Below, piece after piece: positions 16-34,366 of a stretch of 64,000 nt of DNA (the stretch's first letter is position 1; every line of letters starts with the position of its first letter). This DNA comes from an uncultured virus (IMG/VR IMGVR_UViG_3300024258_000016) (Duplodnaviria; Heunggongvirae; Uroviricota; Caudoviricetes). The position numbers were made by a program, and so were the translations under genes. The stretch lies in IMG/VR virus record IMGVR_UViG_3300024258_000016; one strand, given 5' to 3'. The notes beneath the pieces are model-generated. The model was not told the DNA's origin and searched no databases. It worked only from the letters and a program-made list of their open reading frames with translations.

Positions 16-546
16 TCAGACCTTGAGCAACTTGTACTTGATACCGTCAATCTCGACAAGGCGATCTTCGCAAGTATTGGCATTTCGCTTGGCAATCTCG
101 GTGTTATAGTCATGCTCGGTATAACATTCTCCATCAAGATACCAATCTTTGTCACCATTGGCATATTCACAGGCAGGGCCGTCAATGCGGTGACACTTGT
201 CATTTTGATACCAAAATTTGTCACCATTGGCAGATTCAACGGCAGGGCCGTCAATGCGGTGACACTTGCCATTTTGATACCAAGATTTGTCACCATTGGC
301 ATGTTCAACGGCAGGGCCGTCAATGCGGTGACGCTTGCCATTTTGATACCAATGTTTGTCACCATTGACATATTCAACGGCAGGGCCGTCAATGCGGTGA
401 CGCTTGCCATTTTGATACCAATGTTTGTCACCATTGACATATTCAACGGCAGGGCCGTCAATGCGGTGAAACTTGTCATTTTGACACCAAAATTTGTCAC
501 CATTGGCATACACTCTCACTTCATATGTCTCGAAATTCGCCATCAT
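16..546 (-). CDS. [13 protein letters not shown] protein, 5 units, N-cap type A (locus R1)
   Basis: 23-aa repeat WYQNGKxHRIDGPAxExxNGDKx; RBS GAGG and promoter upstream. Confidence 0.9.
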   Translation of the reverse strand: MMANFETYEVRVYANGDKFWCQNDKFHRIDGPAVEYVNGDKHWYQNGKRHRIDGPAVEYVNGDKHWYQNGKRHRIDGPAVEHANGDKSWYQNGKCHRIDGPAVESANGDKFWYQNDKCHRIDGPACEYANGDKDWYLDGECYTEHDYNTEIAKRNANTCEDRLVEIDGIKYKLLKV

Positions 547-582
547 TGCCTCGTTTGTTATTTCTTGACCGTTTCTAGATAC

Positions 583-611
583 ATGATACTACGGGATGAC
601 CGTCAAGTCAA
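583..611 (-). promoter_or_regulatory. sigma70-type early promoter repeat
   Basis: TTGACT-17bp-TATCAT on minus strand, followed by conserved leader GTATCTAGAAACGGTC. Confidence 0.85.
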
Positions 612-620
612 GGGGAAAGT

Positions 621-899
621 TTAAATGTTAATGAGGTCTAGTAGCCATCTGACCCTAAACTGACAATTCCAACGATCAGAGATATACTCAAGAGTGAGCT
701 TGATTTGCTCTAAATCGAAGTAACCATAAGTTTCCACTCCAGGTCGATAATCGTTTTCTTCTGATGCTTGTTCACAGTTTGCAATTACAAGTTCTTTCTC
801 TATAGTTCGTAGTTCTGCCTGAATCTGTCCTAAAGTAGCATCTTCAAGGAATTTATCCTCTACAAACTTATCCCACAAGATAGCTTTGATTTTATCCAT
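621..899 (-). CDS. hypothetical protein (single-gene promoter cassette)
   Basis: ATG with GAGG RBS, lies between two promoter repeats. Confidence 0.75.
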   Translation of the reverse strand: MDKIKAILWDKFVEDKFLEDATLGQIQAELRTIEKELVIANCEQASEENDYRPGVETYGYFDLEQIKLTLEYISDRWNCQFRVRWLLDLINI

Positions 900-937
900 T
901 TCTTTTTCCTCTCTTCTCGACCGTTTCTAGATAATAC

Positions 938-966
938 ATGATACCACAGGATGACCGTCAAGTCAA
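938..966 (-). promoter_or_regulatory. sigma70-type early promoter repeat
   Basis: TTGACT-17bp-TATCAT, near-identical to 583-611. Confidence 0.85.
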
Positions 967-985
967 GGAGAAAGTTTTGGCAGGA

Positions 986-1381
986 TTAGCAAGCCTTGAT
1001 CAGCTTGTACTTGATACCGTCAATCTCGACAAGGCGATCTTCGCAAGTATTGGCATTTCGCTTGGCAATCTCGGTGTTATAGTCATGCTCGGTATAGCAT
1101 TCTCCATCAAGATACCAATATTTGTCACCATTGACATATTCAATGGCAGGGCCGTCAATGCGGTGAAACTTGCCATTTTGATACCAAACTTTGGTACCAT
1201 TGATATATTCAATGGCAGGGCCGTCAATGCGGTGATACTCGCCATTTTGATACCAAAATTTGTCACCACTGGCACATTCAACGGCAGGGCCGTCAATGCG
1301 GTGACAATTGCCATTTTGATACCAACATTTGGTACCATTGGCATACACTCTCACTTCATATGTCTCGAAATTCGCCATCAT
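986..1381 (-). CDS. [13 protein letters not shown] protein, 3 units, N-cap type A (locus R2)
   Basis: N- and C-terminal caps near-identical to R1, different internal modules. Confidence 0.9.
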   Translation of the reverse strand: MMANFETYEVRVYANGTKCWYQNGNCHRIDGPAVECASGDKFWYQNGEYHRIDGPAIEYINGTKVWYQNGKFHRIDGPAIEYVNGDKYWYLDGECYTEHDYNTEIAKRNANTCEDRLVEIDGIKYKLIKAC

Positions 1382-3325: not shown

Positions 3326-3548
3326 TTCCTTTCTCCTTCGTTATTTCCTCAACCTCATGCACTATGGTAACACAAGATCGTCCCACTGTCAAGGGAAAAG
3401 AAATATCGGTAAACTGCTTCTAGACATTATGCAGTTCTTCGAGCGGCCAACTCTATATTATCACTTGTCATTCTAGGTTCAGACTGGCTCTCCACGAGCC
3501 AAAGGGGAATTGAACCCCAAAAGCAAAAAATACCCAATATGAATGAAG

Positions 3549-3624
3549 TTGCTGGTGCTGGAATCCAACCAGCTATCTCCTGAAATGTTGCCCCAGGCGG
3601 GATGTGGCATTTCCCTAACCAGCA
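3549..3624 (-). ncRNA. tRNA-like element with enlarged non-canonical anticodon loop
   Basis: TGCTGGT/ACCAGCA acceptor, GGGA/TCCC D stem, CCTGG-GGCAACATT-TCAGG, GCTGG-TTGGATT-CCAGC. Confidence 0.65.
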
Positions 3625-3632: not shown

Positions 3633-4071
3633 GGGCAGTTAAAGCTTGCCCAGGCATAATCAGCATCTCAAAATTAAAATTAAACTTGCAGTAGCTAACG
3701 AAATGGTTCCATAATCCTACCTAAGCCTAGTAATTATTAATGCCTTTATCAAAAGCGCGAAAGGTCAATAGAGTGAAGATTGTTGATCGGAGATCTTTGA
3801 CCGTAATAACCAATGGGGCTCTTGACCCATTTAACGTCACATGGACGAAGTAGTTTAAGAGGACTTACTTAGGTCTATCTATTACATAGTGAACAATGCA
3901 TTTTTCGTCAACCTTTATAACCACGACACAAATTGATACTACAAACAATTTCAAACAGTTTTGAGACTTGTTTGAGGTCTAAACTAAACCAAGACTGTCC
4001 ACAATCTAACCCCTAAATAATAATGCAGGTCAACAGTCGATGATGGGCAGTTTAGCGACAATGCCCAGGTC
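3633..4071 (-). repeat. four copies of a ~28-nt H-type pseudoknot motif (3633-3655, 3848-3876, 3951-3980, 4045-4071)
   Basis: GAC-CT-X-(A/TT)-GTC-..-AAAC-X' with X/X' = GGGCA/TGCCC, CAAACA/TGTTTG, AAGTA/TACTT. Confidence 0.7.
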
Positions 4072-4076
4072 AGATA

Positions 4077-4562
4077 CTAACCGTTCAGATTGGTGATCTG
4101 CTCCGCGACCTCATCCGAGAACTCCGAGATAGCATCGTCAGCGTCGAGAATCTCGACAGGCTCGCCATCGGTGGAATCCGCCTCAAGCTCGACCTCCACG
4201 TCAAGGTCGGAATCCGCATCCGTCTCGACGAAGCGATCCAGCGTGCCATCCTTCGAGAACGCCTTAATCGCCAGATCCTTGCCCTTGTTCGCCTTATAGC
4301 GACTCTCCAGGCCATCGGGCGTACCGAGGACAGTCACCGAAAGGTCATCCTCGATGAAAAGCAGGGTAAACAGACGATTCCCACCCGCCTCTTCTCGCGA
4401 CACATCAACAGGAACGCTCGACATGAAGAACCGATCCGCAAAAACCTTGCGACCGAGCGCAACCTTGCGAGCGGCGAAATCCTCCTTATTGAAGAAAGTA
4501 CCCTCGGCAGTGGTGTGAGCCTCACGAAACGCCTTGACCGAATCAAAACCAGTAAACGTCAT
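4077..4562 (-). CDS. hypothetical protein with acidic C-terminus, GC-rich codons
   Basis: RBS GGAGGT, 161 aa, preceded by four promoters. Confidence 0.85.
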   Translation of the reverse strand: MTFTGFDSVKAFREAHTTAEGTFFNKEDFAARKVALGRKVFADRFFMSSVPVDVSREEAGGNRLFTLLFIEDDLSVTVLGTPDGLESRYKANKGKDLAIKAFSKDGTLDRFVETDADSDLDVEVELEADSTDGEPVEILDADDAISEFSDEVAEQITNLNG

Positions 4563-4634
4563 AACAGAACCTCCAAAGAACCTAAACGAACATTTCGTGT
4601 CGGCAAAGCACCCGCTCCACCAACTTCATGACCC

Positions 4635-4894
4635 ATTCTACATCAAACAGGGCCGCTTGTCAAGGGGAAAAATCAACCGCCTCTTTGACGGCCCCTAACT
4701 TCCAAGAACATAGTACCACGAACCTACCGCCCTGTCAAGGAGAAAGTTTTCATCGTTTCAACGACCTTCCCTCACCAGGACAAGTACATCGTACCACAGC
4801 CCGAAGGCCCTGTCAACGAAAAAGTTTTCGTCGTTTCAACGGCCTTCCCTCACCAGGACAAGCACATCGTACCACAGCCCGAAGGCCCTGTCAA
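4635..4894 (-). promoter_or_regulatory. four tandem sigma70 promoters including a 78-bp direct duplication
   Basis: TTGACA-17-TAGAAT (4635-4663), -TACTAT (4710-4738), -TACGAT (4788-4816 and 4866-4894). Confidence 0.85.
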
Positions 4895-4903
4895 CGAAAA
4901 AGT

Positions 4904-5089
4904 TTAACCGACTTGCTTGACCTTCTCGATCTTGACAGAAAAGATCTCAAGGGTAAAATCCTCTCCACGCCTTAGTCCTGCATCTTTGACAGTATCGAAA
5001 ATCTTGGCACAATTGAGGTCTTCGGTCCAACCACAATAATTCTGTGCAAGGTAAAGACCATCTTGCCTATTTTGAAGTACAAACATCAT
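4904..5089 (-). CDS. hypothetical protein
   Basis: start at MMFVLQ after AGGAG; promoter at 5148-5176. Confidence 0.7.
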   Translation of the reverse strand: MMFVLQNRQDGLYLAQNYCGWTEDLNCAKIFDTVKDAGLRRGEDFTLEIFSVKIEKVKQVG

Positions 5090-5723: not shown

Positions 5724-6332
5724 TTATCCTTCTTGATTAAGTTGTTTCTTTACTTCTTCCCAAGAGAAGGGATAGAAATCATTTACATCAACTCCCACGT
5801 TAAAATGCTTTGGATAGTTATTCTCATTCGAGTTATGAATGTGACCATGGATAACTCGATCACAGTTATGCTGAATTAGCAATTGCATGGTTTTCATCCT
5901 TCTTCTCAAAGCTTTGTCTTCGATATCTTGAAGAAGAAATCCCACCTTACGATTGAGTACATCATCTACCGTCATTGTGTGATTATGAGCAGGATAATGA
6001 TTCAACATGTATCTGTTCTCGAATACGAATGATCTGTATGTCTCGGGAATGCCCATATTGGCCATCTTTCTCAGAGATAGGTCGTGGTTGCCCTTAATCA
6101 AAATGATGTGGCCATTTAGCCTGTTTCTGACGATATCAGATAACTCTTCTTGATACCTTGTCCAGCCAAAATCTCCAAGATGATAGATTGTATCTCCATC
6201 CTTGACAAGTTCGTTCCACCTTTCAATCATTGTCTCATTCATTTCTTCTAGAGAAGAGAAAGGTCGATTGCATAGTTTTATAATGTTATAGTGGCAAAAA
6301 TGATTATCCGATGTAAACCAAGTACTTGTCAT
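5724..6332 (-). CDS. calcineurin-like metallophosphoesterase
   Basis: SDNHF, LGDF, GNHD, HGHIH motifs. Confidence 0.92.
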   Translation of the reverse strand: MTSTWFTSDNHFCHYNIIKLCNRPFSSLEEMNETMIERWNELVKDGDTIYHLGDFGWTRYQEELSDIVRNRLNGHIILIKGNHDLSLRKMANMGIPETYRSFVFENRYMLNHYPAHNHTMTVDDVLNRKVGFLLQDIEDKALRRRMKTMQLLIQHNCDRVIHGHIHNSNENNYPKHFNVGVDVNDFYPFSWEEVKKQLNQEG

Positions 6333-7359: not shown

Positions 7360-8541
7360 TTACTTGTCAAGGTCATTAAGGAACTTGACTGCACCAATGA
7401 GCTTCTTTGTCCTTTTCAAGATGTGCTCCTTTACAACATCTGTTGCATTCTGAACAGTAACCTCTCCTTTGGCAACAAGGGCCATCATCATAGGGAATTC
7501 TGGAGTGTCCTTGTATTTCAATGCAAACTTCTTTCGCTTGTTTGGATCGAACTCGTAGAATACCGTATCGTATATTTTAGATGCAGTAGTGTTGTAATAC
7601 TGACTGATTTTCTTTTCGATGTCTCGGATATTATCACGAACATCATCATCATTTTCATCAAGCTGGGCAAAGATGTCGTCTACATTCTCGTCAATAATGG
7701 CCTGAATGATGTAGTTCTCTTTGTCCATACAATTGGTACGAAGATGGTGTAGTTGAAAATACTGCGCTGTCTTGATCTTTAGGATCTGTCCATCATCAAG
7801 AGTAACAACCCATCCTTCAATATTTTCTTCTGTCTTTGCCCTCTCCTTCAGATCCTCTACAGTATAATCAGGATATTCTTCTGCCTCGGCAATGTTGATA
7901 CCATAAATCTTGTTCACCAATTCAATGTTTCTATACTTTCCGTTCTCACTCCTTTCTTGGAGTAGTACAAGTTTGTGCTCTTTGTATCTCAACACAATCC
8001 TGTTAGAAGGTCCAACAAACTCGAACAAGGCAGAACGATTAAGTTTCAAGGATGTGTTAATGAATTCCTGTAGTTTCTCATCATTGTCGTAAATCTCTTG
8101 TGCCATACGACTCTGATCGTTGTCAAAACTCATCTTTGTCTTGGCAACGACATTTCCATTAGGAAGTCGAATGAATCGAATAAGACTGCCATCAAACTTA
8201 TTTTGAACAGAGACAATCTTCTTGTCCTTCACATCTTTAAGAAGATATCCTTCTGTCTCGCCCATATTGAAAAACTTGTGAAGCATGATAAATCGTTTCA
8301 TGCTACCATCATTCTGTTGGACGAATGTAAGACCTCTCAACTCGTAAGCCTTGATCTCTGGTTTGTCCTTGATCGGACAATTGAAATCTCCGTACGATGC
8401 AATACGATAATTGAACATCACAACCTTATATCCTTGCACTTCTACAATCGACATAAAGAAGGAATCGTTGGCTTTCACGATTTCGAGACATTCATTATAT
8501 GTTGGAATCATTTTTCTCCCCACTTCCTCAATTCTCTCCAC
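7360..8541 (-). CDS. RNA ligase, T4 Rnl1/RnlA family
   Basis: HKFFN, motif I KFDGSLI, FEFVGP.N.IV, EGWVV, KIK. Confidence 0.9.
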   Translation of the reverse strand: MERIEEVGRKMIPTYNECLEIVKANDSFFMSIVEVQGYKVVMFNYRIASYGDFNCPIKDKPEIKAYELRGLTFVQQNDGSMKRFIMLHKFFNMGETEGYLLKDVKDKKIVSVQNKFDGSLIRFIRLPNGNVVAKTKMSFDNDQSRMAQEIYDNDEKLQEFINTSLKLNRSALFEFVGPSNRIVLRYKEHKLVLLQERSENGKYRNIELVNKIYGINIAEAEEYPDYTVEDLKERAKTEENIEGWVVTLDDGQILKIKTAQYFQLHHLRTNCMDKENYIIQAIIDENVDDIFAQLDENDDDVRDNIRDIEKKISQYYNTTASKIYDTVFYEFDPNKRKKFALKYKDTPEFPMMMALVAKGEVTVQNATDVVKEHILKRTKKLIGAVKFLNDLDK

Positions 8542-10414: not shown

Positions 10415-10490
10415 GGTTCTCCGAGTCGGGATCGAACCGACGATTTTTCTCTTATAAGGAGAATACTTTGACCAACTAAGTTATCGGAGA
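10415..10490 (-). tRNA. tRNA-Ile(UAU)
   Basis: TCTCCGA/TCGGAGA acceptor, TTCTC-CTTATAA-GAGAA, GTCGG-TTCGATC-CCGAC. Confidence 0.88.
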
Positions 10491-10499: not shown

Positions 10500-10784
10500 T
10501 TATCTAGGACATCGAGATTTAAGATTAACAAGAACTTTTGCAGACAGATTTTTACTTATAGTTCCATCTTTATTTACACATTGGAATTGCTCACGATAAA
10601 TATCTCCGTTCCCTGTCAAATATCCTTGTGTTTTACAGAATTCCGAGACTACAGAAATTTCGCACCTCTGATATTCTGCATATCGTTCACATGACCTGTT
10701 GCATGTTCCGATAAACCAAACTAAGAAGATAAAACTTCCAATTGTGCTCAATGTTCCCAATATTGTTTTAGTTCTCTTTTTCAT
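10500..10784 (-). CDS. membrane-anchored Cys-rich protein
   Basis: N-terminal TM segment, several Cys. Confidence 0.7.
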   Translation of the reverse strand: MKKRTKTILGTLSTIGSFIFLVWFIGTCNRSCERYAEYQRCEISVVSEFCKTQGYLTGNGDIYREQFQCVNKDGTISKNLSAKVLVNLKSRCPR

Positions 10785-11167
10785 TTACTTCTCCTAGCAA
10801 TTTCAATACTATAGTCTTGCTCGGAATATTTGATACCATCAATATACCAAAATTTGTAACTATCAATATATTCAAGAGCAGGGCCGCCAATGCGGTGACA
10901 CTTGCCATTTTGATACCAACATTTGTCACCATTGACATATTCAATGGCAGGGCCGTCAATGCGGTGATGTTTGCCATTTTGATACCAAGATTTGCCACCA
11001 TCGGCATATTCGATGGCAGGGCCGTCAATGCGGTGAAGTTTGCCATTTTGATACCATTTAATTGTCTTGTCTGGGATACTAATGGCACATCCGTCAGGCT
11101 TTGGAGTATCATAATCGTCATCGTAAATAACGGTGCCATCTACCCAAATTTGATATGGCTTGATCAT
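10781..11167 (-). CDS. [13 protein letters not shown] protein, 3 units, N-cap type B (R3)
   Basis: MIKPYQIWVDGTVIY...KPDGCAI cap plus repeats. Confidence 0.9.
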   Translation of the reverse strand: MIKPYQIWVDGTVIYDDDYDTPKPDGCAISIPDKTIKWYQNGKLHRIDGPAIEYADGGKSWYQNGKHHRIDGPAIEYVNGDKCWYQNGKCHRIGGPALEYIDSYKFWYIDGIKYSEQDYSIEIARRSK

Positions 11168-12072
11168 TATCTTTCTTTATTCATCAAATTGTCATTCAAT
11201 CGACGCTTGAGCATCTTTGCCGTTGTTGCGGCAATCTGCCCTAACGTATTCTTTGATACAATAATTTCTCCCTCTGCCTCTCGGAGAACATCTTCTTGCA
11301 TTGCCTTGATAATTTCGCCAGTACGAGTCATATCAATTTCACCCACAATCTTGTCAAGTACGTGAGTGAGCCTCATTTCTGTTACCCACTCATCTGCAAT
11401 CTTTCTCGCATCTGCAAGAACTTTGAGCTTCTCTTCTTTCTTGAGCATATCCTCAACCGATGGAGGGTTCTTTCTTTCTTGGAAATCGGCATTCTTGAAC
11501 TTGACAAGCATTCGCTTTCCATTGTTGGTAGCACATTCCCACAATGGTCGAATTACGATCCCTTCACTCTTATGCCCGTGACCCATACCATTACGGATTG
11601 CCTGCTGACATTCCTGATTACGCCACTTGATCAACTCTTCAATGTCTGTACTCGACTTGGTAAACCATACGAATTCAAGATTCATGTCGTCTGTCACTAG
11701 TTTATGGGCCTTGTCGAAATCGAGCCAATGATCAACAATTTTGACATCAAATGCAATGAACTTGGCCTCCTTGCCATATGAATGCGACATCTTTTGCATA
11801 CTTCCGCCATACGCTTCGCCATAGATGGTAATCGCTTGCACACCAAGATTGCGGAAATTGGCAAGAAGAGCATCCTGATCAAAAATGTTAATGAAGAGTT
11901 GATGACTCATCCCTCCAGAAAAGAACCTCAATTCTTCTTCTCCTAACTCATTGATTTTAAAGGATAAATTTGAACTCGTGCCGTGAATTTTCTCAACTAC
12001 GTAAACCTCTTTAAAGTCTAAAATCCTTTGTGCCCTCGGCTTCTCAAGATTGTCAATATGCATGTATCCCAT
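11167..12072 (-). CDS. RNA ligase, Rnl2-like family
   Basis: motif I EKIHGT, YGE, AFD, EGIVIRP, KFKN; promoter at 12101-12129. Confidence 0.85.
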   Translation of the reverse strand: MGYMHIDNLEKPRAQRILDFKEVYVVEKIHGTSSNLSFKINELGEEELRFFSGGMSHQLFINIFDQDALLANFRNLGVQAITIYGEAYGGSMQKMSHSYGKEAKFIAFDVKIVDHWLDFDKAHKLVTDDMNLEFVWFTKSSTDIEELIKWRNQECQQAIRNGMGHGHKSEGIVIRPLWECATNNGKRMLVKFKNADFQERKNPPSVEDMLKKEEKLKVLADARKIADEWVTEMRLTHVLDKIVGEIDMTRTGEIIKAMQEDVLREAEGEIIVSKNTLGQIAATTAKMLKRRLNDNLMNKER

Positions 12073-20368: not shown

Positions 20369-20381
20369 GTTCTGCCTCTGT

Positions 20382-21337: not shown

Positions 21338-21341
21338 TTAA

Positions 21342-21817: not shown

Positions 21818-21890
21818 TACCCTCGGAAGGACTCGAACCTTCAAAAACTGCGATAGAAGCGCAGGGCCTTATCCATTAGACAACGAGGGC
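21818..21890 (-). tRNA. tRNA-Arg(UCU)
   Basis: CTGCG-CTTCTAT-CGCAG, GAAGG-TTCGAGT-CCTTC. Confidence 0.88.
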
Positions 21891-22664: not shown

Positions 22665-22739
22665 GGCTGATCCAGTTAGACTCGAACTAACAACCTCTTC
22701 ATTAACAGTGAAGCTCCCTGCCAATTGGGATATGGATCA
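22665..22739 (-). tRNA. tRNA-Asn(GUU)
   Basis: TGATCCA/TGGATCA acceptor, CTTCA-CTGTTAA-TGAAG. Confidence 0.9.
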
Positions 22740-22807: not shown

Positions 22808-24028
22808 CTACTCGCTCTTATCTTCATTCTCCTTCTTGGACTGTTCTCCAAGGAGCACTTCGACGAAGATCTTGTGGGTAAGCCCCTTGCTCGTCTCGGT
22901 GTTCATGAACCTCCGAATGTTTCCATCCCCATCCTTCCCGCTGACATCCAAGGTATCCTTGGCCATCAACAAGTCGGTGAGCTTCATTCCGATCTCGGAA
23001 GGAAGGCTGACAAAGTACTCGCACAAGTTCTTCATCCGAGCCTCGGGGATGTTACTCTCGAAGACTTTGGCCGCATCCATCTTGTCAATCATCGCCAAGT
23101 GATCGTTCAAGAGGAAATCCTTGGTCAACTCGAACTTGCCCCTATCAAGAATATCCTCGAACTTGACAACCGACTTGTACTTTCGGATATGGTCCGAGAA
23201 GGACATCGCAGCCTCGAATCCAACAAAGCCGGTGGCGATGTTGACGACACGCACGATATGAGCGTCCTTGTTTTCGAGAACATCGTCAATGAGCCCGTTC
23301 AACTTCAGTGCCCTGTCAAGCCGATCCCAAGACCGGCGAGAAGGATACACATTCTTCGGATCATAAGCCCCATTGTGCTCCAAGTGTCCGTTGTTGTGAA
23401 CGATGAAGTCGTAGATGACAGGACTAATCCGACGATTACCCTTTCCATCATCCTTCGCCCAGTTGAGCCAGTCCTCAACGGTAGGATCGACATCAAACAC
23501 GGTCCAACGGTCAAGCTCGGCAGGGTCCATGTCATTCACCTGATAGGCGTCGCCATTCTGCCCGCCATTGACTGCTGCAAAGATCATCGTTCCTTTGTGC
23601 AACTTTTTGCCATAGATCTTCCGAGAGTCGGCAAGCTCGAACAAGCCCTGCCGTACCTCTGTCGTCGCTCGGTCAACCTCGTCAAGGAAGAGTAGGACAG
23701 GCTTCTCACAAGCCTCGACGAGCCAGTCGGGAGCACACCACGCAGTAGTCTTGTACTGGAGGATTGGAGAAAGATCAGGATTGGCATCTGGCATACCAAT
23801 CAAGTCACCTTCCGTCATTTGTGACGCTCGTCGCTCCACCACAGAGTACGGAGTCATCCCGTCAACCAAAACGACAGGTCGCCCCGTCTCTTCGTCATAT
23901 GCTGTATCTCGGGCAAACGCATAGACAACCTCAGACTTACCGATTCCGTGAGCACCACGGATAAGTACGGGGAACTCAATCACGTCACGAACGCTTGCAT
24001 GAAATGCCTTGAAACTAATACCAGCCAT
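22808..24028 (-). CDS. MoxR-like AAA+ ATPase
   Basis: Walker A GAHGIGKS, Walker B LFLDE, DPAELDR, PSRRSW. Confidence 0.9.
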   Translation of the reverse strand: MAGISFKAFHASVRDVIEFPVLIRGAHGIGKSEVVYAFARDTAYDEETGRPVVLVDGMTPYSVVERRASQMTEGDLIGMPDANPDLSPILQYKTTAWCAPDWLVEACEKPVLLFLDEVDRATTEVRQGLFELADSRKIYGKKLHKGTMIFAAVNGGQNGDAYQVNDMDPAELDRWTVFDVDPTVEDWLNWAKDDGKGNRRISPVIYDFIVHNNGHLEHNGAYDPKNVYPSRRSWDRLDRALKLNGLIDDVLENKDAHIVRVVNIATGFVGFEAAMSFSDHIRKYKSVVKFEDILDRGKFELTKDFLLNDHLAMIDKMDAAKVFESNIPEARMKNLCEYFVSLPSEIGMKLTDLLMAKDTLDVSGKDGDGNIRRFMNTETSKGLTHKIFVEVLLGEQSKKENEDKSE

Positions 24029-24111
24029 TTTTATTCTTCCTTTTCTTTCTTGAACCAATCAACCACAACGAGTCAACACCCTGTCAACCCATCCCCTCAA
24101 CTTCTAGATAC

Positions 24112-24373
24112 ATGATACCATGAGATGAAGATACGTACAACGTAAAATTGCCGGGCATCCAAACCAACATCGCAACATCAAATTCTCAATCATTTTCAAC
24201 CCCTTCCCTCATTTGGTGTACCCCATTATACCCCATCCTTGCCAGATGGTCAAGGGAAAAATTCCACCACCTAATAAACAACAACAATGAGAAGTAACAG
24301 CAACGCTGCAGCTACCATTTTAAACCCCCTCGACTTCTAGATACATTATACATTAGTCTTGAGGAACTTGCAA
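24112..24373 (-). promoter_or_regulatory. three tandem promoters upstream of the AAA gene
   Basis: TTGTAC-17-TATCAT (24112-24140), TTGACC-17-TATAAT (24225-24253), TTGCAA-17-TATAAT (24345-24373). Confidence 0.7.
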
Positions 24374-25038
24374 GGATAATTTTCGACAGACAAAAGCCCC
24401 TCTACAATATGAGTTCTCCTTTGCATTTCTGACGAAAACTGCACAGATTCCCACCACTTATAAAGTGTATTTCTTTCTCTCTTCTTGTAATTAAAATATG
24501 TTTCAAAATATCTGTCTTCAATCTGAACGATACTTTCCCAATTACTCGGAATTTGAATCTCTACCTGTCTTTCAGACAAAGGCACAATAATTCTTAAAAA
24601 ATCTGAAGTGCCAAAAAACAAACGAAGTGCAACTCTTCTTATAGATTTATCCTCAAATTTCTTCAAAATGATTGAGTTTACTGATCCCCAACTTCTTGAA
24701 GCATCTTTAAATAAGATTTTGCTCCATTCGATATGGGAAATGATATAGTTATCCCTTAAGTTGGGATCTTGATTTGGCCATTGCTTTGTCAATGACACGA
24801 TTGTCCCCGCTCCAACCCCTTTTTCGATCATCAAACTTTTCATTGCACTTCTTGCTAATCTTTCGTAATCGTGTAAGCCTTTTAGATCTTCTTTTAAAGC
24901 CTTACACTTTAGTCTTGTATGTCCTTCTTCTCTGCAATATCCACACCTACGAATTGACAATTCCTTTCTTTGTTCTTCTGAAACGTGTGGGCATTTTGTT
25001 TTGTTATGACCTTTCTGACCACAAATACTACATGCCAT
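24346..25038 (-). CDS. protein with two N-terminal CCHC zinc knuckles
   Basis: CSICGQKGHNKTKC and CGYCREEGHTRLKC. Confidence 0.8.
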   Translation of the reverse strand: MACSICGQKGHNKTKCPHVSEEQRKELSIRRCGYCREEGHTRLKCKALKEDLKGLHDYERLARSAMKSLMIEKGVGAGTIVSLTKQWPNQDPNLRDNYIISHIEWSKILFKDASRSWGSVNSIILKKFEDKSIRRVALRLFFGTSDFLRIIVPLSERQVEIQIPSNWESIVQIEDRYFETYFNYKKRERNTLYKWWESVQFSSEMQRRTHIVEGLLSVENYPCKFLKTNV

Positions 25039-25786: not shown

Positions 25787-26232
25787 TTGTTACTTATCTT
25801 AATTTTGTAGTCATGCTTGGAATAGCGCTTCCCATCAATGTACCAAGATTTGTCACCATTGGCAGATTCAATGGCAGGGCCGTCAATGCGGTGACGCTTG
25901 TTATTTTGATACCAAAATTTGGCACCATTGGTATATTCAATGGCAGGGCCGTCAATGCGGTGACACTTGCCATTTTGATACCAATATTTGGTACCATTGG
26001 CATGTTCAATGGCAGGGCCGTCAATGCGGTGACACTTGCCATTTTGATACCAAATTTTGGTACCATTGGCACATTCAATGGCAGGGCCGTCAGTGCGGTG
26101 AAGTTTGTCATTTTGATACCATTTAATTGTCTTGTCTGGGATACTAATGGCACATCCGTCAGGCTTTGGAATGTCTTTATTGTCATCGTAAATGACGGTG
26201 CCATCTACCCAAATTTGATATGGCTTGATCAT
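25783..26232 (-). CDS. [13 protein letters not shown] protein, 4 units, cap B (R4)
   Basis: cap B plus repeats. Confidence 0.9.
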   Translation of the reverse strand: MIKPYQIWVDGTVIYDDNKDIPKPDGCAISIPDKTIKWYQNDKLHRTDGPAIECANGTKIWYQNGKCHRIDGPAIEHANGTKYWYQNGKCHRIDGPAIEYTNGAKFWYQNNKRHRIDGPAIESANGDKSWYIDGKRYSKHDYKIKISNK

Positions 26233-26829
26233 TTATTTCCTTTCTTTGACATCAAATTTGATTGTATGTTTTTCCATTGTTACTCCTGTAGTATAACAGG
26301 TATCGCACGGATTGTCAAACGTTTTCCCTTTGCCATCACATTTGCGACACATTGAAGCTTGGAAGAAAGGTCCATTAGAGTTTACGACAACTCCGCTTCC
26401 ATTACAATCAGCACAGTCTTTCTTTCCTTCTCCACCTTCACCATTACAATCTTTACAAATTACTCTTAATACGTATTCAACTTCTCCTTCAAACCCTTCT
26501 TGAATAGCTTTAACATCTGTCCTTAAATTGATTTTGACATCTTTTTCTGTTGAGGGTTTCCACTCTTTCGGTTTATTGTTTCTCTGAATTCTCTCTCGAA
26601 ACATTTGCTCTTGGTAGTCATGATACTTCTCAACATTCAGTTGGTTGTCATATTGTTTTCTCTTTTCCTCATCAGACAAGATAGTGTAGGCAACATTGAT
26701 CTCTTTGAATGTCTCTTCATCTCCGGTATCTTTGTCGGGATGATAGATCTTTGCAAGTCTCTTGTATGAACTTTTGATCTCTTTTTTGGAAGAGTTTTCA
26801 TTAATCTCTAAAGTGTCATAGTGAGTCAT
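26233..26829 (-). CDS. dnaJ: DnaJ-like co-chaperone (J domain + zinc finger, short C-terminus)
   Basis: [33 protein letters not shown]. Confidence 0.88.
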
Positions 26830-27292
26830 TATTTTTGCCCTTGCTTAAATTAATGATTTTAATATTGTAGTCATGCTCGGAATATTTGATCCCTTCGATG
26901 TACCAATATTTGCCACCATTGGCACGTTCAACGGCAGGGCCGTCAATGCGGTGACGCTTGCCATTTTGATACCAATGTTTGTCACCATTGACATATTCAA
27001 CGGCAGGGCCGTCAATGCGGTGACGCTTGCCATTTTGATACCAAAGTTCGTCACCATTGGCATATTCGCGGGCAGGGCCGTCAATGCGGTGAAGTTTGCC
27101 ATTTTGAAACCAATATTTGGTACCATTGGCATGTTCAATGGCAGGGCCGTCAATGCGGTGATGTTTGCCATTTTGATACCAAATGATTGTCTTGCTTGGG
27201 ATACTAATGGCACAACCGTCAGGCTTTGGAATGTCATTATTGTCATCATAAATGACGGTGCCATCTGCCCATATTTGGTAAGACTCAATCAT
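26816..27292 (-). CDS. [13 protein letters not shown] protein, 4 units, cap B (R5)
   Basis: [11 protein letters not shown] cap plus repeats. Confidence 0.9.
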
Positions 27293-27699
27293 TACAATTT
27301 GACCCCTTCTCCCCAAAAGTGAGAACTGCTTCTGTTATTTGTCGTCAATAGACACTGAATTTTGTCCTGATCATTTGGAACCATCTTGTAAAATTGGATT
27401 TTTCCATAAGGAAGTTTGCCACCCTTTTTTGGAGTTCCATCCTTCGTTTTTGGAATTTGCTCTTCGTTAAGATATTTTAGTCCTGCTTTGACAATATCTT
27501 CCTTTGTGTGCCCTTCTTCAAGAAGGCTATTAAACTCTGGAATATCAAGATTTGCAAGAATTGCCCACTTGCTGTCTTGTAGTCCTTTTACACGGATTAT
27601 GGAACGAAAGTACCTTCCTGCTTTTTTTGTTTCTTGATCTTTCCCTCTCTTCCTCTTTGGAATTGGGTTAAAAGAACATTTTACTTCATTATTAATCAT
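27292..27699 (-). CDS. basic hypothetical protein
   Basis: 135-aa ORF between R5 and R6. Confidence 0.7.
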   Translation of the reverse strand: MINNEVKCSFNPIPKRKRGKDQETKKAGRYFRSIIRVKGLQDSKWAILANLDIPEFNSLLEEGHTKEDIVKAGLKYLNEEQIPKTKDGTPKKGGKLPYGKIQFYKMVPNDQDKIQCLLTTNNRSSSHFWGEGVKL

Positions 27700-28492
27700 T
27701 TAGTTTCCTTATTTTGATGTTGTAGTCATGCTCGGAATAGCGCTTCCCATCAATGTACCAAGATTTGTCACCATTGACATGTTCAATGGCAGGGCCGTCA
27801 ATGCGGTGACGCTTGTTATTTTGATACCAAAATTTGGCACCATTGGCAGATTCAATGGCAGGGCCGTCAATGCGGTGACGCTTGTTATTTTGATACCATT
27901 CTTTGCCACCATTGGCATATTCGCGGGCAGGGCCGTCAATGCGGTGATATTTGCCATTTTGAAACCAATGTTTGGTACCATTGACATAAATGGCGGCAGG
28001 GCCGTCAATGCGGTGAAGTGTGTCATTTTGATACCAATATTTGGCACCATTGGCATGTTCAATGGCAGGGCCGTCAATGCGGTGACACTTGCCATCAATG
28101 TACCAAGATTTGTCGCCATTGGCAAATTCAACGGCAGGGCCGTCAATGCGGTGACACTTGTCATTTTGACACCAAGATTTGTCACCATTGGCATGTTCAA
28201 CGGCAGGGCCGTCAATGCGGTGACGCTTGCCATTTTGATACCAATGTTTGTCACCATTGGCATATTCAATGGCAGGGCCGTCAATGCGGTAAAGTTTGCT
28301 ATTTTGATACCAAGATTTGTCACCATTGGCATATTCAATGGCAGGGCCGTCAGTGCGGTGAAGTTTGCCATTTTGATACCAAGTGATTGTCTTGTCTGGG
28401 ATACCAATGGCACAACCGTCAGGCTTTGGAGTATCATGATCGTCATCGTAAATAACGGTGCCATCTGCCCAAATTTGATATAGCTTGATCAC
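27692..28492 (-). CDS. [13 protein letters not shown] protein, 9 units, cap B (R6)
   Basis: longest array. Confidence 0.92.
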   Translation of the reverse strand: MIKLYQIWADGTVIYDDDHDTPKPDGCAIGIPDKTITWYQNGKLHRTDGPAIEYANGDKSWYQNSKLYRIDGPAIEYANGDKHWYQNGKRHRIDGPAVEHANGDKSWCQNDKCHRIDGPAVEFANGDKSWYIDGKCHRIDGPAIEHANGAKYWYQNDTLHRIDGPAAIYVNGTKHWFQNGKYHRIDGPAREYANGGKEWYQNNKRHRIDGPAIESANGAKFWYQNNKRHRIDGPAIEHVNGDKSWYIDGKRYSEHDYNIKIRKLND

Positions 28493-30921: not shown

Positions 30922-31329
30922 TTATGCTTCTTTTTCTTTTTCATTGTGATAAGTTTTCATCTTGATGTTGTATTTGTGCTCGAAATAACAGACACCTTCA
31001 ATGTACCAATATTTTTCACCATTGGCATATTCGCGGGCAGGGCCGTCAATGCGGTGATGTTTGCCATTTTGAAACCAATATTTGGTACCATTGATATATT
31101 CAATGGCAGGGCCGTCAATGCGGTGATACTCGCCATTTTGATACCAAAATTTGTCACCACTGGCACATTCAACGGCAGGGCCGTCAATGCGGTGATACTT
31201 GTTATCTTGATACCAAGCAATTGCCTTGTCTGGGATACCAATGGCACAACCGTCAGGCTTTGGAGTATCATAATCGCCATCATAAATGACGGTGCCATCT
31301 GCCCATATTTGGTAAGAATTAAATGCCAT
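30922..31329 (-). CDS. [13 protein letters not shown] protein, 3 units, cap B (R7)
   Basis: [12 protein letters not shown] cap plus repeats. Confidence 0.88.
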   Translation of the reverse strand: MAFNSYQIWADGTVIYDGDYDTPKPDGCAIGIPDKAIAWYQDNKYHRIDGPAVECASGDKFWYQNGEYHRIDGPAIEYINGTKYWFQNGKHHRIDGPAREYANGEKYWYIEGVCYFEHKYNIKMKTYHNEKEKEA

Positions 31330-31795
31330 TGTTGTAACGCTTTTCAAAATCTTTGATGGTATACCTACTAACATACTGATTATGCAATCCACACTTTGGA
31401 CACTGCACAAACGCAACACTATGAATTTTTGCAAAGATCATAAAGTTTACGTTACATTCTGGACATTTGCATTCTTCAATTCTTTTATTTAGATCGATTT
31501 CTCCCCAAATTGCATAAATTAACGAAAAGATAATCAAACCAATAAGAAAATAACCTAACATTTTAGACCTACCTGTATCAATTTATGTCTTATTATATCT
31601 CAAACTGAAAGGGTTGTCAAGGTAGTTCTATTGACGATCTGGGTAGTGTCTGTTAAGTAATCTTGCCGCTCTTGATGTTTTACATTCTTCTTTATATTTG
31701 TTGTTATTTCGTTCTTGTTCTATATGTGTCAATGCAATAATAAATACAATAATGAATAATATATCCATATCGTTATACTCCTTATGCTGCTGTTT

Positions 31796-32056
31796 TTATA
31801 CGATTTTTATTAGGACGAAAATGAGACCCATTCCAACACTTACAACACCCGAAGCAATCGCTCCCCAAAATCTTGCCTTGTTCTTAACGTCATTTTCTAA
31901 AGTAGCATGTTTGGTACACAATACGCTGACACTGGTTGCCAACTTTGTTATCTGATCTTTTACATCTAATGAATTTTCTTTTAATGTTGACAAAGATTCT
32001 TTTACAGAACCAATCCATTCATATAATTCTTTTTCATCAAAGTCATGTTCGTTCAT
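31796..32056 (-). CDS. coiled-coil protein with C-terminal TM segment (holin/XhlA-like)
   Basis: architecture; preceded by ACTATTTA motif. Confidence 0.55.
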   Translation of the reverse strand: MNEHDFDEKELYEWIGSVKESLSTLKENSLDVKDQITKLATSVSVLCTKHATLENDVKNKARFWGAIASGVVSVGMGLIFVLIKIV

Positions 32057-32308
32057 ATCGCATGTTCATCCTTATTTTGAATGCTTATTCATACGATATA
32101 AATAGTTTTGAATTACGTTTCTTCATCACAAGAAAGGTTAGACTTTATCCACACCTTTTTTGTCACTGTCTTCCCATCTACACAATAAATAAACACTTCG
32201 TACTTTGAATTGACAATATTCCACGAAGAAGGATTGATCCTAGAAAGTGAACTACAATTTCTAGGGAAAACAACTACACCATCTGCAAAAACAATATACG
32301 TACTGTAA

Positions 32309-32719
32309 TCAGGTGTTTTCATTCTCATTCTCCTTTGTCATTGAATCGACAACAATTTGATGTCCTTCCTTTGTGTATTTGATCCCTTCGATGTACCAAT
32401 ATTTGCCACCATTGGCATATTCACAGGCAGGGCCGTCAATGCGGTGATGTTTGCCATTTTGATACCAAAATTTGTCACCATTGGCACGTTCAATGGCAGG
32501 GCCGTCAATGCGGTGATGTTTGCCATTTTGAAACCAATGTTTGGTACCATCGGTATAAACGGCGGCAGGACCACCATCTCGATGAAGCTTGTTGTTCTTA
32601 AACCATCTCAAAGATTTTGTTGGAATTTCAATGGAACAACCGTCAGGGTATATCGTATCCTGTTTTAAATCATCATCATAAATAACGGTTCCATCTGAGA
32701 AGATCTGATACCATTTCAT
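32309..32719 (-). CDS. [13 protein letters not shown] protein, 3 units, diverged cap B (R8)
   Basis: MKWYQIFSDGTVIY...PDGCSI. Confidence 0.88.
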   Translation of the reverse strand: MKWYQIFSDGTVIYDDDLKQDTIYPDGCSIEIPTKSLRWFKNNKLHRDGGPAAVYTDGTKHWFQNGKHHRIDGPAIERANGDKFWYQNGKHHRIDGPACEYANGGKYWYIEGIKYTKEGHQIVVDSMTKENENENT

Positions 32720-33227
32720 CTTTTGATTATCCTAGTTTGATTTTGCTTAAAATTTTGCCATTTTCCCCGATTACTGTGATTTCTTTTCCGCTTGTTAATG
32801 CAATTTTGGTAAACCTTGCATACTTATCAATCTCTTTACTAATCGGAGTTTTACTATGAAGATTAGTCATCGACACATCTTCTTCAATTGTTTCTACATT
32901 TTTCGGGTTCACATCAATCGAGCTTAATCTATAGCAACTTTCTCCAGAACAATCGTACGTTGTAATTTTTACTACTCTTGTTAAATTGACCATTATATCT
33001 CCTTTTTATTTATATATTTTATTTTTGTCTACGTAAACTAATCTGTTGTGTTTTATCATTACCAAACACTTTCTATAATTTTCCATCCAATTGATCATAA
33101 TTGCCGTTTGTGGTTCCCCTTCTGTATAAAATTCAAGGCTATTGTCCTTATTTAGAACCAATGTGTTCGCTGGCAGATACACTGTTTCTGGTGGATTTTC
33201 TTCTTCTTGTATTGTTATTAAATTCAT

Positions 33228-33851
33228 TTATTTCCCCTTCTTTTCTCCCTTTTGAAATTTTAGCCACCTCTCTTGAACTGTCAAAAGAGGGCCATGATAA
33301 AACTTTACCATATATTCTTTTGCTCCACGAGCAGAAACAAGAATAGGATCATTAACTATCTTTACAATCATCCCTGGTTTATTTTTATATCCCAAGCTTG
33401 CTGTTGCCCTTGCTTGAACCAAATTACCAACTGCAAATCTAGGAGTCTTCTTTGTTTCTTCAATTACTTTCTTGGCATAAGAATTCTCTGTCAAGCTTCT
33501 ATATTCCGTGTATGTTGGAACATAATCGATCAGAATCTTAGCTGACAGATCTGTGTGCCATCTTCCCGCAGAATTGTAATGTGCAGCAATTGTAGCGTTT
33601 TCTTTTTCTTCGTCTCCATATTCCCATTCATCCATAATAGCGATATTCTCATCACTATATTCTTCTTCCATCTTGATGAACCATTTTTCTTGATTCATCG
33701 TTAAGCTCCCTCTATTTGTAACATGATTCTCAAAAGATGTCAATACTTCTTTTGTTTTGTCATCAAGATATTCAAGCTTATCAATAAGAAGTGCATTAAT
33801 TCGATCTAAATGATTGTTACTGCTGCTGTTATTTTTATTTTTATTTTTCAT
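33228..33851 (-). CDS. hypothetical protein with C-terminal SH3-like segment
   Basis: 207 aa; PRFAVGNLV...VQERWLK. Confidence 0.7.
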   Translation of the reverse strand: MKNKNKNNSSSNNHLDRINALLIDKLEYLDDKTKEVLTSFENHVTNRGSLTMNQEKWFIKMEEEYSDENIAIMDEWEYGDEEKENATIAAHYNSAGRWHTDLSAKILIDYVPTYTEYRSLTENSYAKKVIEETKKTPRFAVGNLVQARATASLGYKNKPGMIVKIVNDPILVSARGAKEYMVKFYHGPLLTVQERWLKFQKGEKKGK

Positions 33852-34366
33852 TTGTTGCTCATCTCAATTTTATAGTCATGCTCGGAATATTCGACACCAT
33901 CAATATACCAAAATTTGGTACCATTGGCATATTCAACGGCAGGGCCGTCAATGTGGTGATGTTTGCCATTTTGATACCAAAATTTGTCACCATTGGCATA
34001 TTCAATGGCAGGGCCGTCAATGCGGTGATATTTGCCATTTTGAAACCAAAATTTGGTACCATTGGCATATTCAATGGCAGGGCCGTCAATGCGGTGACAC
34101 TTGCCATCAATGTACCAAGATTTGTCGCCATTGGCAAATTCAATGGCAGGGCCGTCAAAGCGGTGACGCTTGTTATTTTGATACCATTCTTTGCCACCAT
34201 TGGCATATTCAATGGCAGGACCATCAGTGCGGTGATACTTGTTATTTTGATACCAAATGATTATCTTCTCTGGGATACTAATGGCACAACCATCAGGTCT
34301 TGGAGTATAGTGATCGCGATTATAAATGACGGTGCCATCTGCCCAAATTTGATATGGCTTGATCAT
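33848..34366 (-). CDS. [13 protein letters not shown] protein, 5 units, cap B (R9)
   Basis: cap B plus repeats. Confidence 0.9.
   Translation of the reverse strand: MIKPYQIWADGTVIYNRDHYTPRPDGCAISIPEKIIIWYQNNKYHRTDGPAIEYANGGKEWYQNNKRHRFDGPAIEFANGDKSWYIDGKCHRIDGPAIEYANGTKFWFQNGKYHRIDGPAIEYANGDKFWYQNGKHHHIDGPAVEYANGTKFWYIDGVEYSEHDYKIEMSNK

What the first reader, a model, noticed from the sequence alone, without database searches (positions are those of the whole stretch)
16..34366. Nine dispersed genes assembled from 39 shuffled 69-bp modules with a near-invariant DNA core
Seen: loci R1-R9 carry 5,3,3,4,4,9,3,3,5 units of WYQNGKxHRIDGPAxExxNGDKx. The 21-bp core CACCGCATTGACGGCCCTGCC is conserved even at synonymous sites in most units, in GC-richer DNA than the surrounding AT-rich genome. 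The intervening 48 bp varies mainly at a few residue positions, giving a coding repeat-spacer-like layout. Variants recur as identical blocks in different order at distant loci: 1190-1304 = 31081-31195 (115 nt identical, 30 kb apart, different N-caps); PACEYANG in R1/R8; PAREYANG in R5/R6/R7; EFANGDKSWYIDGKC and GGKEWYQNNKR in R6/R9; VEYVNGDKH in R1/R5. Inference: recombination or gene conversion at the core builds a combinatorial library of beta-hairpin repeat binders, conceptually TALE-like, e.g. against host defence proteins. The repeat itself is known from other viral proteins; the DNA-level shuffling is the novel aspect.
Basis: partly seen in the sequence, partly recalled or inferred. Interest (0 to 1): 0.9.

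Follow-up and report, generated by a model that had tools for sequence, protein, structure and literature searches.

The report
Hypervariable MORN-like repeat genes in phage
An uncultured marine phage carries more than a dozen small genes built from near-identical 23-residue repeats that swap pieces with one another and change fast at a few fixed residues, so they look like an evolving set of binding proteins whose targets are unknown.

Summary
Nine minus-strand genes carry 5,3,3,4,4,9,3,3,5 = 39 units of exactly 69 bp. The 21-bp core is exact in 31 of 39 units and within 3 mismatches in 38 of 39, against 0.01 expected. The family is larger than reported: three more genes lie just beyond the window start and one elsewhere in the genome, giving at least 13.

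The core is not special. The whole unit is frozen at synonymous sites, and variation sits in about 5-9 codons. At codons 5, 7, 17, 21 and 23 there are 27 extra codon states and none is synonymous.

Units do not group by gene. They share 89-119-nt blocks between loci. Association between variable codons fades within about 15 codons. Units are less diverged at synonymous sites than the genes' own end caps. A sister-sample contig is identical outside the arrays but differs in unit number and order.

The predicted fold is MORN-like. No reverse transcriptase was found in the 122.7 kb held.

Best reading: homologous recombination among units plus diversifying selection. A binding function is inferred, not shown.

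This scan found the same family before on near-identical DNA. I found no paper describing it.

The parts
16..546 (-). R1. N-cap MMANFETYEV, 5 units (array 145-489), C-terminal extension ...EDRLVEIDGIKYKLLKV.
986..1381 (-). R2. Same cap type as R1, 3 units (array 1118-1324).
10781..11167 (-). R3. N-cap [28 protein letters not shown], 3 units (array 10850-11056).
   Evidence: The region is 100% identical in an independent sample's contig (L009).
25783..26232 (-). R4. 4 units (array 25846-26121). This is the protein that was modelled.
   Evidence: AlphaFold2 pLDDT 90.3. Best solved-structure matches are MORN proteins.
26816..27295 (-). R5. 4 units (array 26906-27181). The start is GTG 27295 or ATG 27292.
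27692..28492 (-). R6. 9 units (array 27761-28381), GTG start.
   Evidence: Identical in two other samples' contigs (L022/L023; contig B).
30922..31329 (-). R7. 3 units (array 31009-31215). It has 2 units in a sister-sample contig. It holds the only base (31206) that differs between the window and G000 over 63,031 nt.
32309..32719 (-). R8. 3 units (array 32399-32605). Unit 1 is the most diverged and is AT-richer.
33848..34366 (-). R9. 5 units (array 33911-34255).
579..612 (-). Sigma-70-like promoter (TTGACT/TTGACG ... TATCAT) directly upstream of R1. A second copy lies at 934-967, downstream of R2.
   Evidence: 2 matches, 0 expected

Best explanation
The loci are a multigene family of small, probably cytoplasmic, MORN-like beta-hairpin repeat proteins. 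There are at least 13 genes and about 50 units in a marine myovirus of 148 kb or more. All units descend from one 69-bp DNA unit that uses codons rare in this genome. Homologous recombination among these near-identical units, within and between dispersed paralogues, keeps the scaffold uniform. It takes the form of unequal crossover and short-patch gene conversion, and it moves patches between genes and changes unit number. The phage's own UvsX-like recombinase and SbcCD-like nuclease probably carry it out. Selection retains amino-acid changes at about 5-7 codons per unit (5, 7, 15, 17, 18, 21, 23). The result is a repertoire of related proteins with different surfaces. Shown: the anatomy, the fold class, the mosaic sharing, the excess of amino-acid-changing variation, and the array polymorphism between near-identical genomes. 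Inferred: which enzymes do the recombining, that the proteins bind other molecules, and that the targets are fast-evolving host or competitor proteins.
For: Identity by descent: 37 of 39 units use CGC for Arg9 (3% of Arg codons in 18 reference genes) and GGC for Gly12 (12% of Gly codons). Mixing: 4 of 39 units have a nearest neighbour in their own gene. Mean differences are 10.18 within genes and 10.13 between genes, permutation p = 0.56. On a unit tree the gene label changes 29 times, against 27.4 +/- 1.4 for shuffled labels and a minimum of 8. Blocks: exact in-phase runs of 119, 115, 97 and 89 nt occur between loci. The longest run was matched in 0 of 1000 codon-column shuffles and 8 of 1000 whole-unit shuffles. 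Linkage: the mean z of mutual information between variable codons falls from 1.47 at 1-3 codons to 0.0 at 16-23 and -0.18 at 35 or more. Homogenisation, same six genes: synonymous divergence (pS) of units between genes is 0.11 (bootstrap 0.045-0.21), of N-caps 0.25 (0.12-0.40) and of C-caps 0.55 (0.31-0.83). pN/pS is about 1.4 in units and 0.3-0.4 in caps. Selection: across units there are 55 extra amino-acid states and 12 extra synonymous states. On a minimum spanning tree there are 22 synonymous and 156 nonsynonymous changes (omega 1.7, P = 0.008). At codons 5, 7, 17, 21 and 23 there are 1 synonymous and 95 nonsynonymous changes (P = 2e-8), and the third base is invariant in 39 of 39 units at codons 5, 7 and 17. 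Population: contig B from another sample has no mismatch outside the arrays but carries a 69-bp in-frame deletion in R7. That junction shares only 10 nt, too short for an assembler to collapse. B also has a fusion of R1 to the next paralogue (23 nt shared) and a 138-bp insertion containing a 29-nt R1-like patch. The single difference between the window and G000 over 63,031 nt is a nonsynonymous change in R7 unit 1. Fold: pLDDT 90.3, and the top structure matches are all MORN proteins. Recombination genes are present in the genome (exonuclease).
Against: The codon bootstrap of whole-unit pairwise omega spans 1 (0.59-3.19). Spanning-tree counts are inflated by recombination, and the hypervariable codons were chosen after looking at the data. 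The N-cap and unit pS intervals overlap slightly. All DNA is short-read metagenome assembly. The R5-to-R1 switch in contig B sits in a 97-nt identical block and may be a mis-join, and the one-unit variant in L024 has a 48-nt junction. Logan contigs of four runs break at every array, so they cannot confirm unit order. No expression, binding or host data exist. I could not get model coordinates, so whether the variable residues lie on one face is untested.
Confidence: 0.7

Rival explanations
1. Targeted hypermutation. A diversity-generating retroelement or a similar mutator writes the variable codons, and selection plus recombination are secondary.
For: First and second codon positions vary while the third stays fixed (NNT/NNC codons), which resembles the variable regions of such retroelements. 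CheckV rates the held genome record 59% complete, so a reverse transcriptase could lie in an unseen part.
Against: No RVT_1 match in the 122.7-kb record. All 35 core-like sites in it lie inside the coding arrays, so there is no separate template copy. Codon 7 position 1 is never A in 39 units and codon 17 position 1 is only T or C, unlike adenine-directed mutagenesis. About 50 targets in 13 genes is unlike any known retroelement layout (recalled).
Confidence: 0.05
2. Plain duplication history. Genes and units arose by a recent burst of duplications with unit loss and gain, and there was no exchange between loci afterwards.
For: Tandem gene arrays exist (R1, R2 and three more; R4-R6). The Thr10 variant occurs only in first units of R4, R6 and R9. 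Some neighbouring unit pairs are shared in the same order.
Against: Units are less diverged at synonymous sites than the caps of the same genes. Units show no clustering by gene or by position. Linkage between variable codons is lost within one unit. The order of shared blocks is not collinear: R9 matches R6 units 7-8, then 4-5.
Confidence: 0.1
3. Assembly artefact. Module order and number in the arrays are products of short-read assembly through repeats.
For: Repeats break assemblies. Logan contigs of 4 of 4 runs stop at every array. A paper reports MORN repeat proteins 37 times more frequent in long reads than in assemblies of marine samples (PMC9238414, passages read). One junction in contig B lies in a 97-nt identical block.
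Against: R6 (9 units), R3 and R8 are identical in contigs assembled from other samples. Variable codons lie less than 30 nt apart, so most k-mers are unique. Junctions sharing 8-23 nt cannot be made by a graph assembler without reads that carry them. The per-unit statistics (codon states, rare codons) do not depend on unit order.
Confidence: 0.05
4. Same evolutionary mechanism but a different job. The proteins could be virion or internal proteins, cell-envelope binders or self-assembling scaffolds rather than binders of host proteins.
For: A paper states that MORN repeats occur in phage endolysins (PMC9238414, passage read). MORN1 forms tail-to-tail dimers (PMC7725318, passages read).
Against: The genes sit among small genes on the replication-gene strand, beside tRNA, RNA-ligase, DnaJ and GroEL genes, and far from the structural module (G000 about 16-50 kb). 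R1 has a sigma-70-like promoter. No catalytic or lysis domain is fused to them.
Confidence: 0.2

Closest known systems
Eukaryotic MORN repeat proteins (MORN1 6t68/6t69/6t4d, MORN4 6jle, junctophilin 9uo9/7rxe; PMC7725318)
   Same: A 23-residue tandem unit forming beta-hairpins in an elongated twisted sheet. The best structure matches of the R4 model are all of this class.
   Different: No Pfam MORN or MORN_2 match above cut-off in 0 of 9 proteins. The unit motif is WYQNGKxHRIDGPAxExxNGDKx, not GxG...YEGEW. TM-scores are only 0.26-0.47. The proteins are phage-encoded, small and present in many paralogues.
Pfam DUF6745 (PF20530) and the large, mostly viral set of 'WYxNGxxHRxDGPA' proteins
   Same: At least 7600 proteins match R4 at E of 0.001 or better, among 8000 candidates scored. 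Atlas clusters are about 95% viral. Many carry a weak PF20530 hit.
   Different: The Pfam match covers only about 20 of 206 profile positions. It exceeds the whole-protein cut-off in 2 of 9 proteins, with no single passing stretch. No function is known and no paper mentions the family.
Repeat-protein multigene families of giant viruses (MORN, ankyrin, FNIP; PMC5753266)
   Same: Many paralogous repeat-protein genes in a large viral genome, proposed to mediate protein-protein interactions with the host (passages read).
   Different: Those are eukaryotic viruses. The passages I read do not describe frozen synonymous sites with hypervariable codons, or exchange at the level of single units.
TAL effector repeats with repeat-variable di-residues (recalled, not tested)
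   Same: Near-identical DNA repeats in which a few fixed positions carry the specificity-determining variation, and recombination between repeats.
   Different: TAL repeats are 33-35-residue helical units that read DNA. Here the units are 23-residue beta-hairpins with 5-9 variable positions, and the ligand is unknown.
Diversity-generating retroelements
   Same: Variation confined to first and second codon positions of a few codons in a fixed scaffold.
   Different: No reverse transcriptase or template repeat was found. The base spectrum is not adenine-directed. Many dispersed targets are involved.

Membership tests
MORN repeat (structure-defined, PMC7725318; Pfam PF02493/PF07661) | Tandem units of 23 residues | tested here: met
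   39 of 39 units spaced at 69 bp
MORN repeat (structure-defined, PMC7725318; Pfam PF02493/PF07661) | Beta-hairpin repeat fold resembling solved MORN proteins | tested here: met
   R4 model pLDDT 90.3, pTM 0.80. The top 8 Foldseek matches are all MORN proteins (probability 0.95-1.00 in those 8 rows), but TM-scores are 0.26-0.47.
MORN repeat (structure-defined, PMC7725318; Pfam PF02493/PF07661) | Profile match above Pfam's gathering score | tested here: not met
   0 of 9 proteins hit PF02493 or PF07661 at E of 0.01 or better. One distant homologue, P0070, scores 29.5 against a cut-off of 29.6 for MORN_2.
MORN repeat (structure-defined, PMC7725318; Pfam PF02493/PF07661) | GxG, G10 and YEGEW signature motifs | tested here: inconclusive
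   The unit has DGPA, two NG turns and WYQNG. I could not establish a residue-by-residue correspondence without model coordinates.
Pfam DUF6745 (PF20530) | Domain match above 27 bits | tested here: inconclusive
   R6 scores 31.1 bits and R9 30.6 for the whole protein, and the other 7 score lower or do not hit. No single stretch passes, and only profile positions of about 59-93 of 206 are matched.
Diversity-generating retroelement target | Reverse transcriptase in the genome | tested here: not met
   No RVT_1 match in G000 (122,708 bp, CheckV completeness 59%). The rest of the 147.7-kb record could not be searched.
Diversity-generating retroelement target | Template repeat whose adenines correspond to the variable sites | tested here: not met
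   All 35 core-like sites in G000 lie in the coding arrays. Codon 7 position 1 is T or C only, with no A in 39 units.
Concerted evolution with diversifying selection (as in LRR resistance-gene clusters; recalled as a class) | Repeats of different paralogues more alike at silent sites than the paralogues' unique parts | tested here: met
   pS is 0.11 for units, 0.25 for N-caps and 0.55 for C-caps
Concerted evolution with diversifying selection (as in LRR resistance-gene clusters; recalled as a class) | Excess of amino-acid-changing variation at a subset of codons | tested here: met
   27 extra codon states at codons 5, 7, 17, 21 and 23, none synonymous. 1 synonymous against 95 nonsynonymous tree changes, P = 2e-8. 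The whole-unit bootstrap is not significant.

The most novel reading that the evidence does not exclude
The phage maintains a recombination-driven diversity generator. A DNA-identical, rare-codon scaffold is kept as substrate for its own UvsX-type recombination machinery. Unit order, unit number and patches at hypervariable codons then turn over faster than point mutations accumulate. This would give each phage lineage a fresh repertoire of binders, making it a phage counterpart of cassette-based antigenic variation or lamprey VLR assembly, with no reverse transcriptase involved.
Probability: 0.2. Interest if true: 0.85.

Novelty: new variant of a known kind. Interest (0 to 1): 0.62.

Why it matters
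If the reading is right, large marine phages carry natural libraries of small beta-hairpin repeat binders that diversify by ordinary homologous recombination plus selection, without a dedicated mutator. That would be a third route to phage protein hypervariability, beside retroelement mutagenesis and tail-fibre module exchange. It would also point to an unknown and apparently contested set of targets inside the host cell. The same repeat occurs in thousands of mostly viral proteins of unknown function, so one characterised member would inform many. The fixed scaffold with 5-7 variable residues per unit is a ready-made design for engineered binders. The arrays are also a practical warning: such genes are the places where short-read viral assemblies break or mis-join (PMC9238414).

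Tried and rejected
- **Phage collection.** Megablast of 20 kb found no match. The DnaE-like polymerase has only hits below 31% identity. R6 by tblastn hit only 5 records. No close relative was available for comparing module order.
- **Core scans.** Exact-core scan of viral contigs: 0 loci. In the metagenome scan, L007 and L019 are chance matches in GC-rich (59-61%) unrelated DNA and were dropped.
- **Family and structure libraries.** PDB sequence search gave nothing meaningful, best E = 0.018 to a designed TIM barrel. NCBIfam gave nothing near cut-off. PHROGs gave only weak families of unknown function.
- **The 147.7-kb record.** Two attempts to search it (reverse transcriptase, degenerate core) failed because the record is not held. 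I did not pursue this further.
- **Sequencing runs.** 20 runs hold the stretch and no RNA holder is listed. Four runs were laid. They are Logan contigs that stop at each array, and no listed piece spans an array. The listed joints have short sides (21-51 nt) with extra letters between them. The 'other letters' inside arrays may come from paralogous units. None of this was used as evidence on module order.
- **Edge units.** First and last units of arrays are not more alike than random units (P = 0.87 and 0.44), so I dropped the idea that edge units are conserved.
- **Whole-unit omega.** By codon bootstrap it is not significantly above 1.
- **Polymorphic-toxin paper.** I looked in PMC3482391 for a MORN or YwqK immunity link. 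There were no occurrences in the text held.
- **One face or not.** I could not map variable residues onto a face because the tools return no model coordinates. From the DSSP string, codons 5 and 21 fall in the two tight turns and 7, 17, 18 and 23 flank them. This is inference only.
- **Literature.** Six searches. Going by their listings and the passages read, none describes hypervariable MORN-like gene families in phages.


Full report
**Setting**

The window is part of a large uncultured phage at 37.6% GC. Nearly all genes are on the minus strand. It encodes 9 tRNAs, a DnaE-like polymerase, ribonucleotide reductase, GroEL, two RNA ligases and several homing endonucleases.

The held genome record G000 is 122,708 bp and equals window 970-64000 apart from one base. 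Its other half encodes terminase, major head protein, tail sheath, a UvsX-like recombinase, SbcCD-like nuclease subunits and a DNA ligase. The phage is therefore a myovirus with its own recombination genes.

A 147,738-bp metagenome contig is essentially the same genome and runs beyond the window start. Twenty seawater or marine runs hold the region. No close relative exists in the phage collection.

**The observation**

Nine minus-strand genes carry 5,3,3,4,4,9,3,3,5 = 39 units of exactly 69 bp, with consensus WYQNGKxHRIDGPAxExxNGDKx.
- The 21-bp core is exact in 31 units and within 3 mismatches in 38, against 0.01 expected.

There are two cap types:
- R1 and R2 begin MMANFETYEV and end with a roughly 25-residue extension.
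- R3-R9 begin with a roughly 37-residue [13 protein letters not shown]...PKPDGC domain.

The family continues outside the window. Three more R1-type genes lie at 123663-124142, 125277-125786 and 126345-126755 of the long contig. A diverged member lies at G000 56465-56791. That makes at least 13 genes and about 50 units.

**The core is not special**

Across the 39 units there are 55 extra amino-acid states but only 12 extra synonymous codon states. Variation is concentrated in codons 2, 5, 6, 7, 15, 17, 18, 21 and 23.

At codons 5, 7, 17, 21 and 23 every amino acid is encoded by a single codon: 27 extra states, none synonymous. The third base is invariant in 39 of 39 units at codons 5, 7 and 17.

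Synonymous changes per synonymous site are similar in the core (7 over 5.4) and in the other scaffold codons (4 over 2.7). The core is simply the longest stretch without a variable codon. A repeat-spacer layout is not supported.

**Identity by descent**

The scaffold uses codons that are rare in this genome. CGC is 3% of Arg codons and GGC is 12% of Gly codons in 18 reference genes, yet each is used in 37 of 39 units. Codon preference cannot explain the uniformity, so the units share recent DNA ancestry. Units are 46.2% GC against 38.2% for reference genes.

**Exchange between loci**

- *No grouping by gene.* Only 4 of 39 units have a nearest neighbour in their own gene. Mean differences are 10.18 within genes and 10.13 between genes (p = 0.56). 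On a maximum-likelihood unit tree the gene label changes 29 times (possible range 8-30), against 27.4 +/- 1.4 for shuffled labels. First and last units are not conserved as classes.
- *Long shared blocks.* Exact in-phase blocks of 119, 115, 97 and 89 nt join different loci. The longest was reached in 0 of 1000 shuffles of codon columns and 8 of 1000 shuffles of whole units.
- *Decaying linkage.* Association between variable codons decays with distance. Mean z is 1.47, 1.21, 0.84, 0.00, -0.14 and -0.18 for 1-3, 4-8, 9-15, 16-23, 24-34 and 35 or more codons. This is expected from short exchanged patches.
- *Silent-site divergence.* For the same six genes, synonymous divergence is 0.11 between units of different genes (bootstrap 0.045-0.21), 0.25 in the N-caps (0.12-0.40) and 0.55 in the C-caps (0.31-0.83). 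The repeats have therefore been homogenised since the genes diverged.

**Selection**

- Whole-unit pairwise pN/pS is 1.33. In the six-gene set it is about 1.4, against 0.3-0.4 in the caps.
- On a minimum spanning tree of the 37 distinct unit sequences there are 22 synonymous and 156 nonsynonymous changes (omega 1.7, P = 0.008).
- Without the four most diverged units there are 8.5 and 122.5 (omega 3.5, P = 1e-5).
- At the five most variable codons there are 1 and 95 (P = 2e-8). The 14 scaffold codons give omega 0.58.

Caveats: tree counts are inflated by recombination. The variable codons were picked after inspection. A bootstrap over the 23 codons gives 0.59-3.19, which includes 1.

**Variation between near-identical genomes**

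Contig B (8.5 kb, another sample) shows no mismatch to the window outside the arrays. R6 (9 units) and the part of R8 that contig B covers (all three units) are identical. Its differences are:
- R7 has 2 units, not 3. This is a clean 69-bp in-frame deletion whose junction shares only 10 nt.
- R5 switches into R1 units within a 97-nt identical block.
- R1 is fused to the next paralogue across a 23-nt identity.
- The 125277-type gene has 5 units, not 3. The 138-bp insert contains a 29-nt R1-like patch, with junctions of 8 and 22 nt.

A further contig, L024, has the 126345-type gene with 1 unit, not 3, with a 48-nt junction.

Junctions of 8-23 nt cannot arise in a graph assembler without reads that carry them, so those variants are probably real. 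The 97-nt and 48-nt junctions are ambiguous.

The one base that differs between the window and G000 over 63,031 nt is a nonsynonymous site in R7 unit 1. Contig B and all four laid runs agree with G000 there.

Independent assemblies reproduce R6, R3 and R8 exactly. Logan contigs break at each array and say nothing about order.

**What the proteins are**

No Pfam family reaches a convincing match. DUF6745 touches about 20 profile positions, and MORN and MORN_2 do not hit. NCBIfam, PHROGs and PDB sequence searches add nothing.

R4 has at least 7600 relatives, mostly from metagenomes. Some are fused to other N-terminal domains such as DUF7666 and DUF3310. Atlas clusters are about 95% viral.

An AlphaFold2 model of R4 built with a 50-sequence alignment is confident (pLDDT 90.3, pTM 0.80). 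It consists of short beta-strands with a C-terminal helix. Its best solved-structure matches are all MORN proteins, at modest TM-scores. MORN repeats are 23-residue beta-hairpins forming a grooved, twisted sheet (PMC7725318, passages read).

I therefore call the fold MORN-like and do not file the proteins as members of Pfam MORN.

**Mechanism and rivals**

- *Best reading.* Recombination among near-identical units plus diversifying selection fits all the tests above. The phage encodes the enzymes for it.
- *Retroelement mutator.* The NNT/NNC pattern suggests it, but no reverse transcriptase or template copy was found in 122.7 kb and the base spectrum is wrong for adenine-directed mutagenesis. 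The genome record is incomplete, so this is not fully excluded.
- *Function.* The binder role is inferred from the fold class, the fixed scaffold with variable residues, and the setting. The genes lie among small genes beside tRNA, RNA-ligase, phosphoesterase, DnaJ and GroEL genes, and R1 has a sigma-70-like promoter. The target is unknown. An anti-defence role is a guess.

**Prior knowledge**

This scan noted the same family earlier on near-identical DNA (e1-5862112 and e1-5862123) and similar arrays in other phages (e1-5401719 and e1-5648220). Those notes agree with what I measured independently here.

Six literature searches listed no paper describing such families in phages. The related literature I read covers:
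- giant-virus repeat families (PMC5753266, passages);
- the under-recovery of MORN repeat genes in short-read marine assemblies (PMC9238414, passages).

Noticed in passing
window 26233-26829 (-) and 35912-37471 (-): The phage encodes its own DnaJ-like protein (J domain plus CXXCXGXG zinc finger), wedged between R5 and R4, and a GroEL-like chaperonin about 9 kb away. A link to folding of the repeat proteins is speculation.
   Followed up: partly
metagenome contig positions 123663-126755 (loci L010, L001, L002) and G000:C1:56465-56791: Four further family members lie outside the window. Three are R1-type genes in tandem just beyond window position 1. One is a diverged 2-unit gene with the same C-terminal ...IEGVTYKLTKV tail.
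   Followed up: partly
window 579-612 and 934-967 (-): A 34-bp sigma-70-like promoter element is duplicated almost exactly, once upstream of R1 and once downstream of R2 (upstream of ORF 621-899). There are 2 matches against 0 expected.
   Followed up: partly
window 31206: This is the only base differing between the window and G000 over 63,031 nt. It changes Asn to Asp at codon 4 of R7 unit 1. Contig B and all four laid runs carry the G000 letter.
   Followed up: yes
window 5724-6332, 7360-8541, 11167-12072, 14921-15694 (-) and tRNA genes at 1857-2290, 3548-3624, 10415-10490, 21817-21890, 22665-22739: Two RNA ligases (one of the T4 Rnl1 type), two phosphoesterases and 9 tRNA genes are interspersed with the repeat genes. 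This looks like a tRNA repair or supply module.
   Followed up: no
window 4001-5000 and 23001-24000: Two 1-kb bins reach 52% GC in a 37.6% GC genome. They cover ORF 4077-4562 (no family found) and the ATPase gene 22808-24058.
   Followed up: no
window 12140-13141, 19118-20410, 57720-58760 (-); G000 23751-24986, 33714-35243: There are at least five homing or HNH endonuclease genes, one directly after the major head protein gene.
   Followed up: no
window 42425-45841 (-): The replicative polymerase is a 1138-residue DnaE-like (Pol III alpha) protein. Its best matches in the phage collection are at or below 30.4% identity.
   Followed up: no
window 4-624, 938-1498, 25813-26355, 27728-28483, 33878-34438 (+) and same-strand alternative frames: Long ORFs run through the arrays in other frames and on the opposite strand because the unit lacks stop codons there. 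They are by-products of the repeat. Only the WYQNG frame has homologues and caps.
   Followed up: yes
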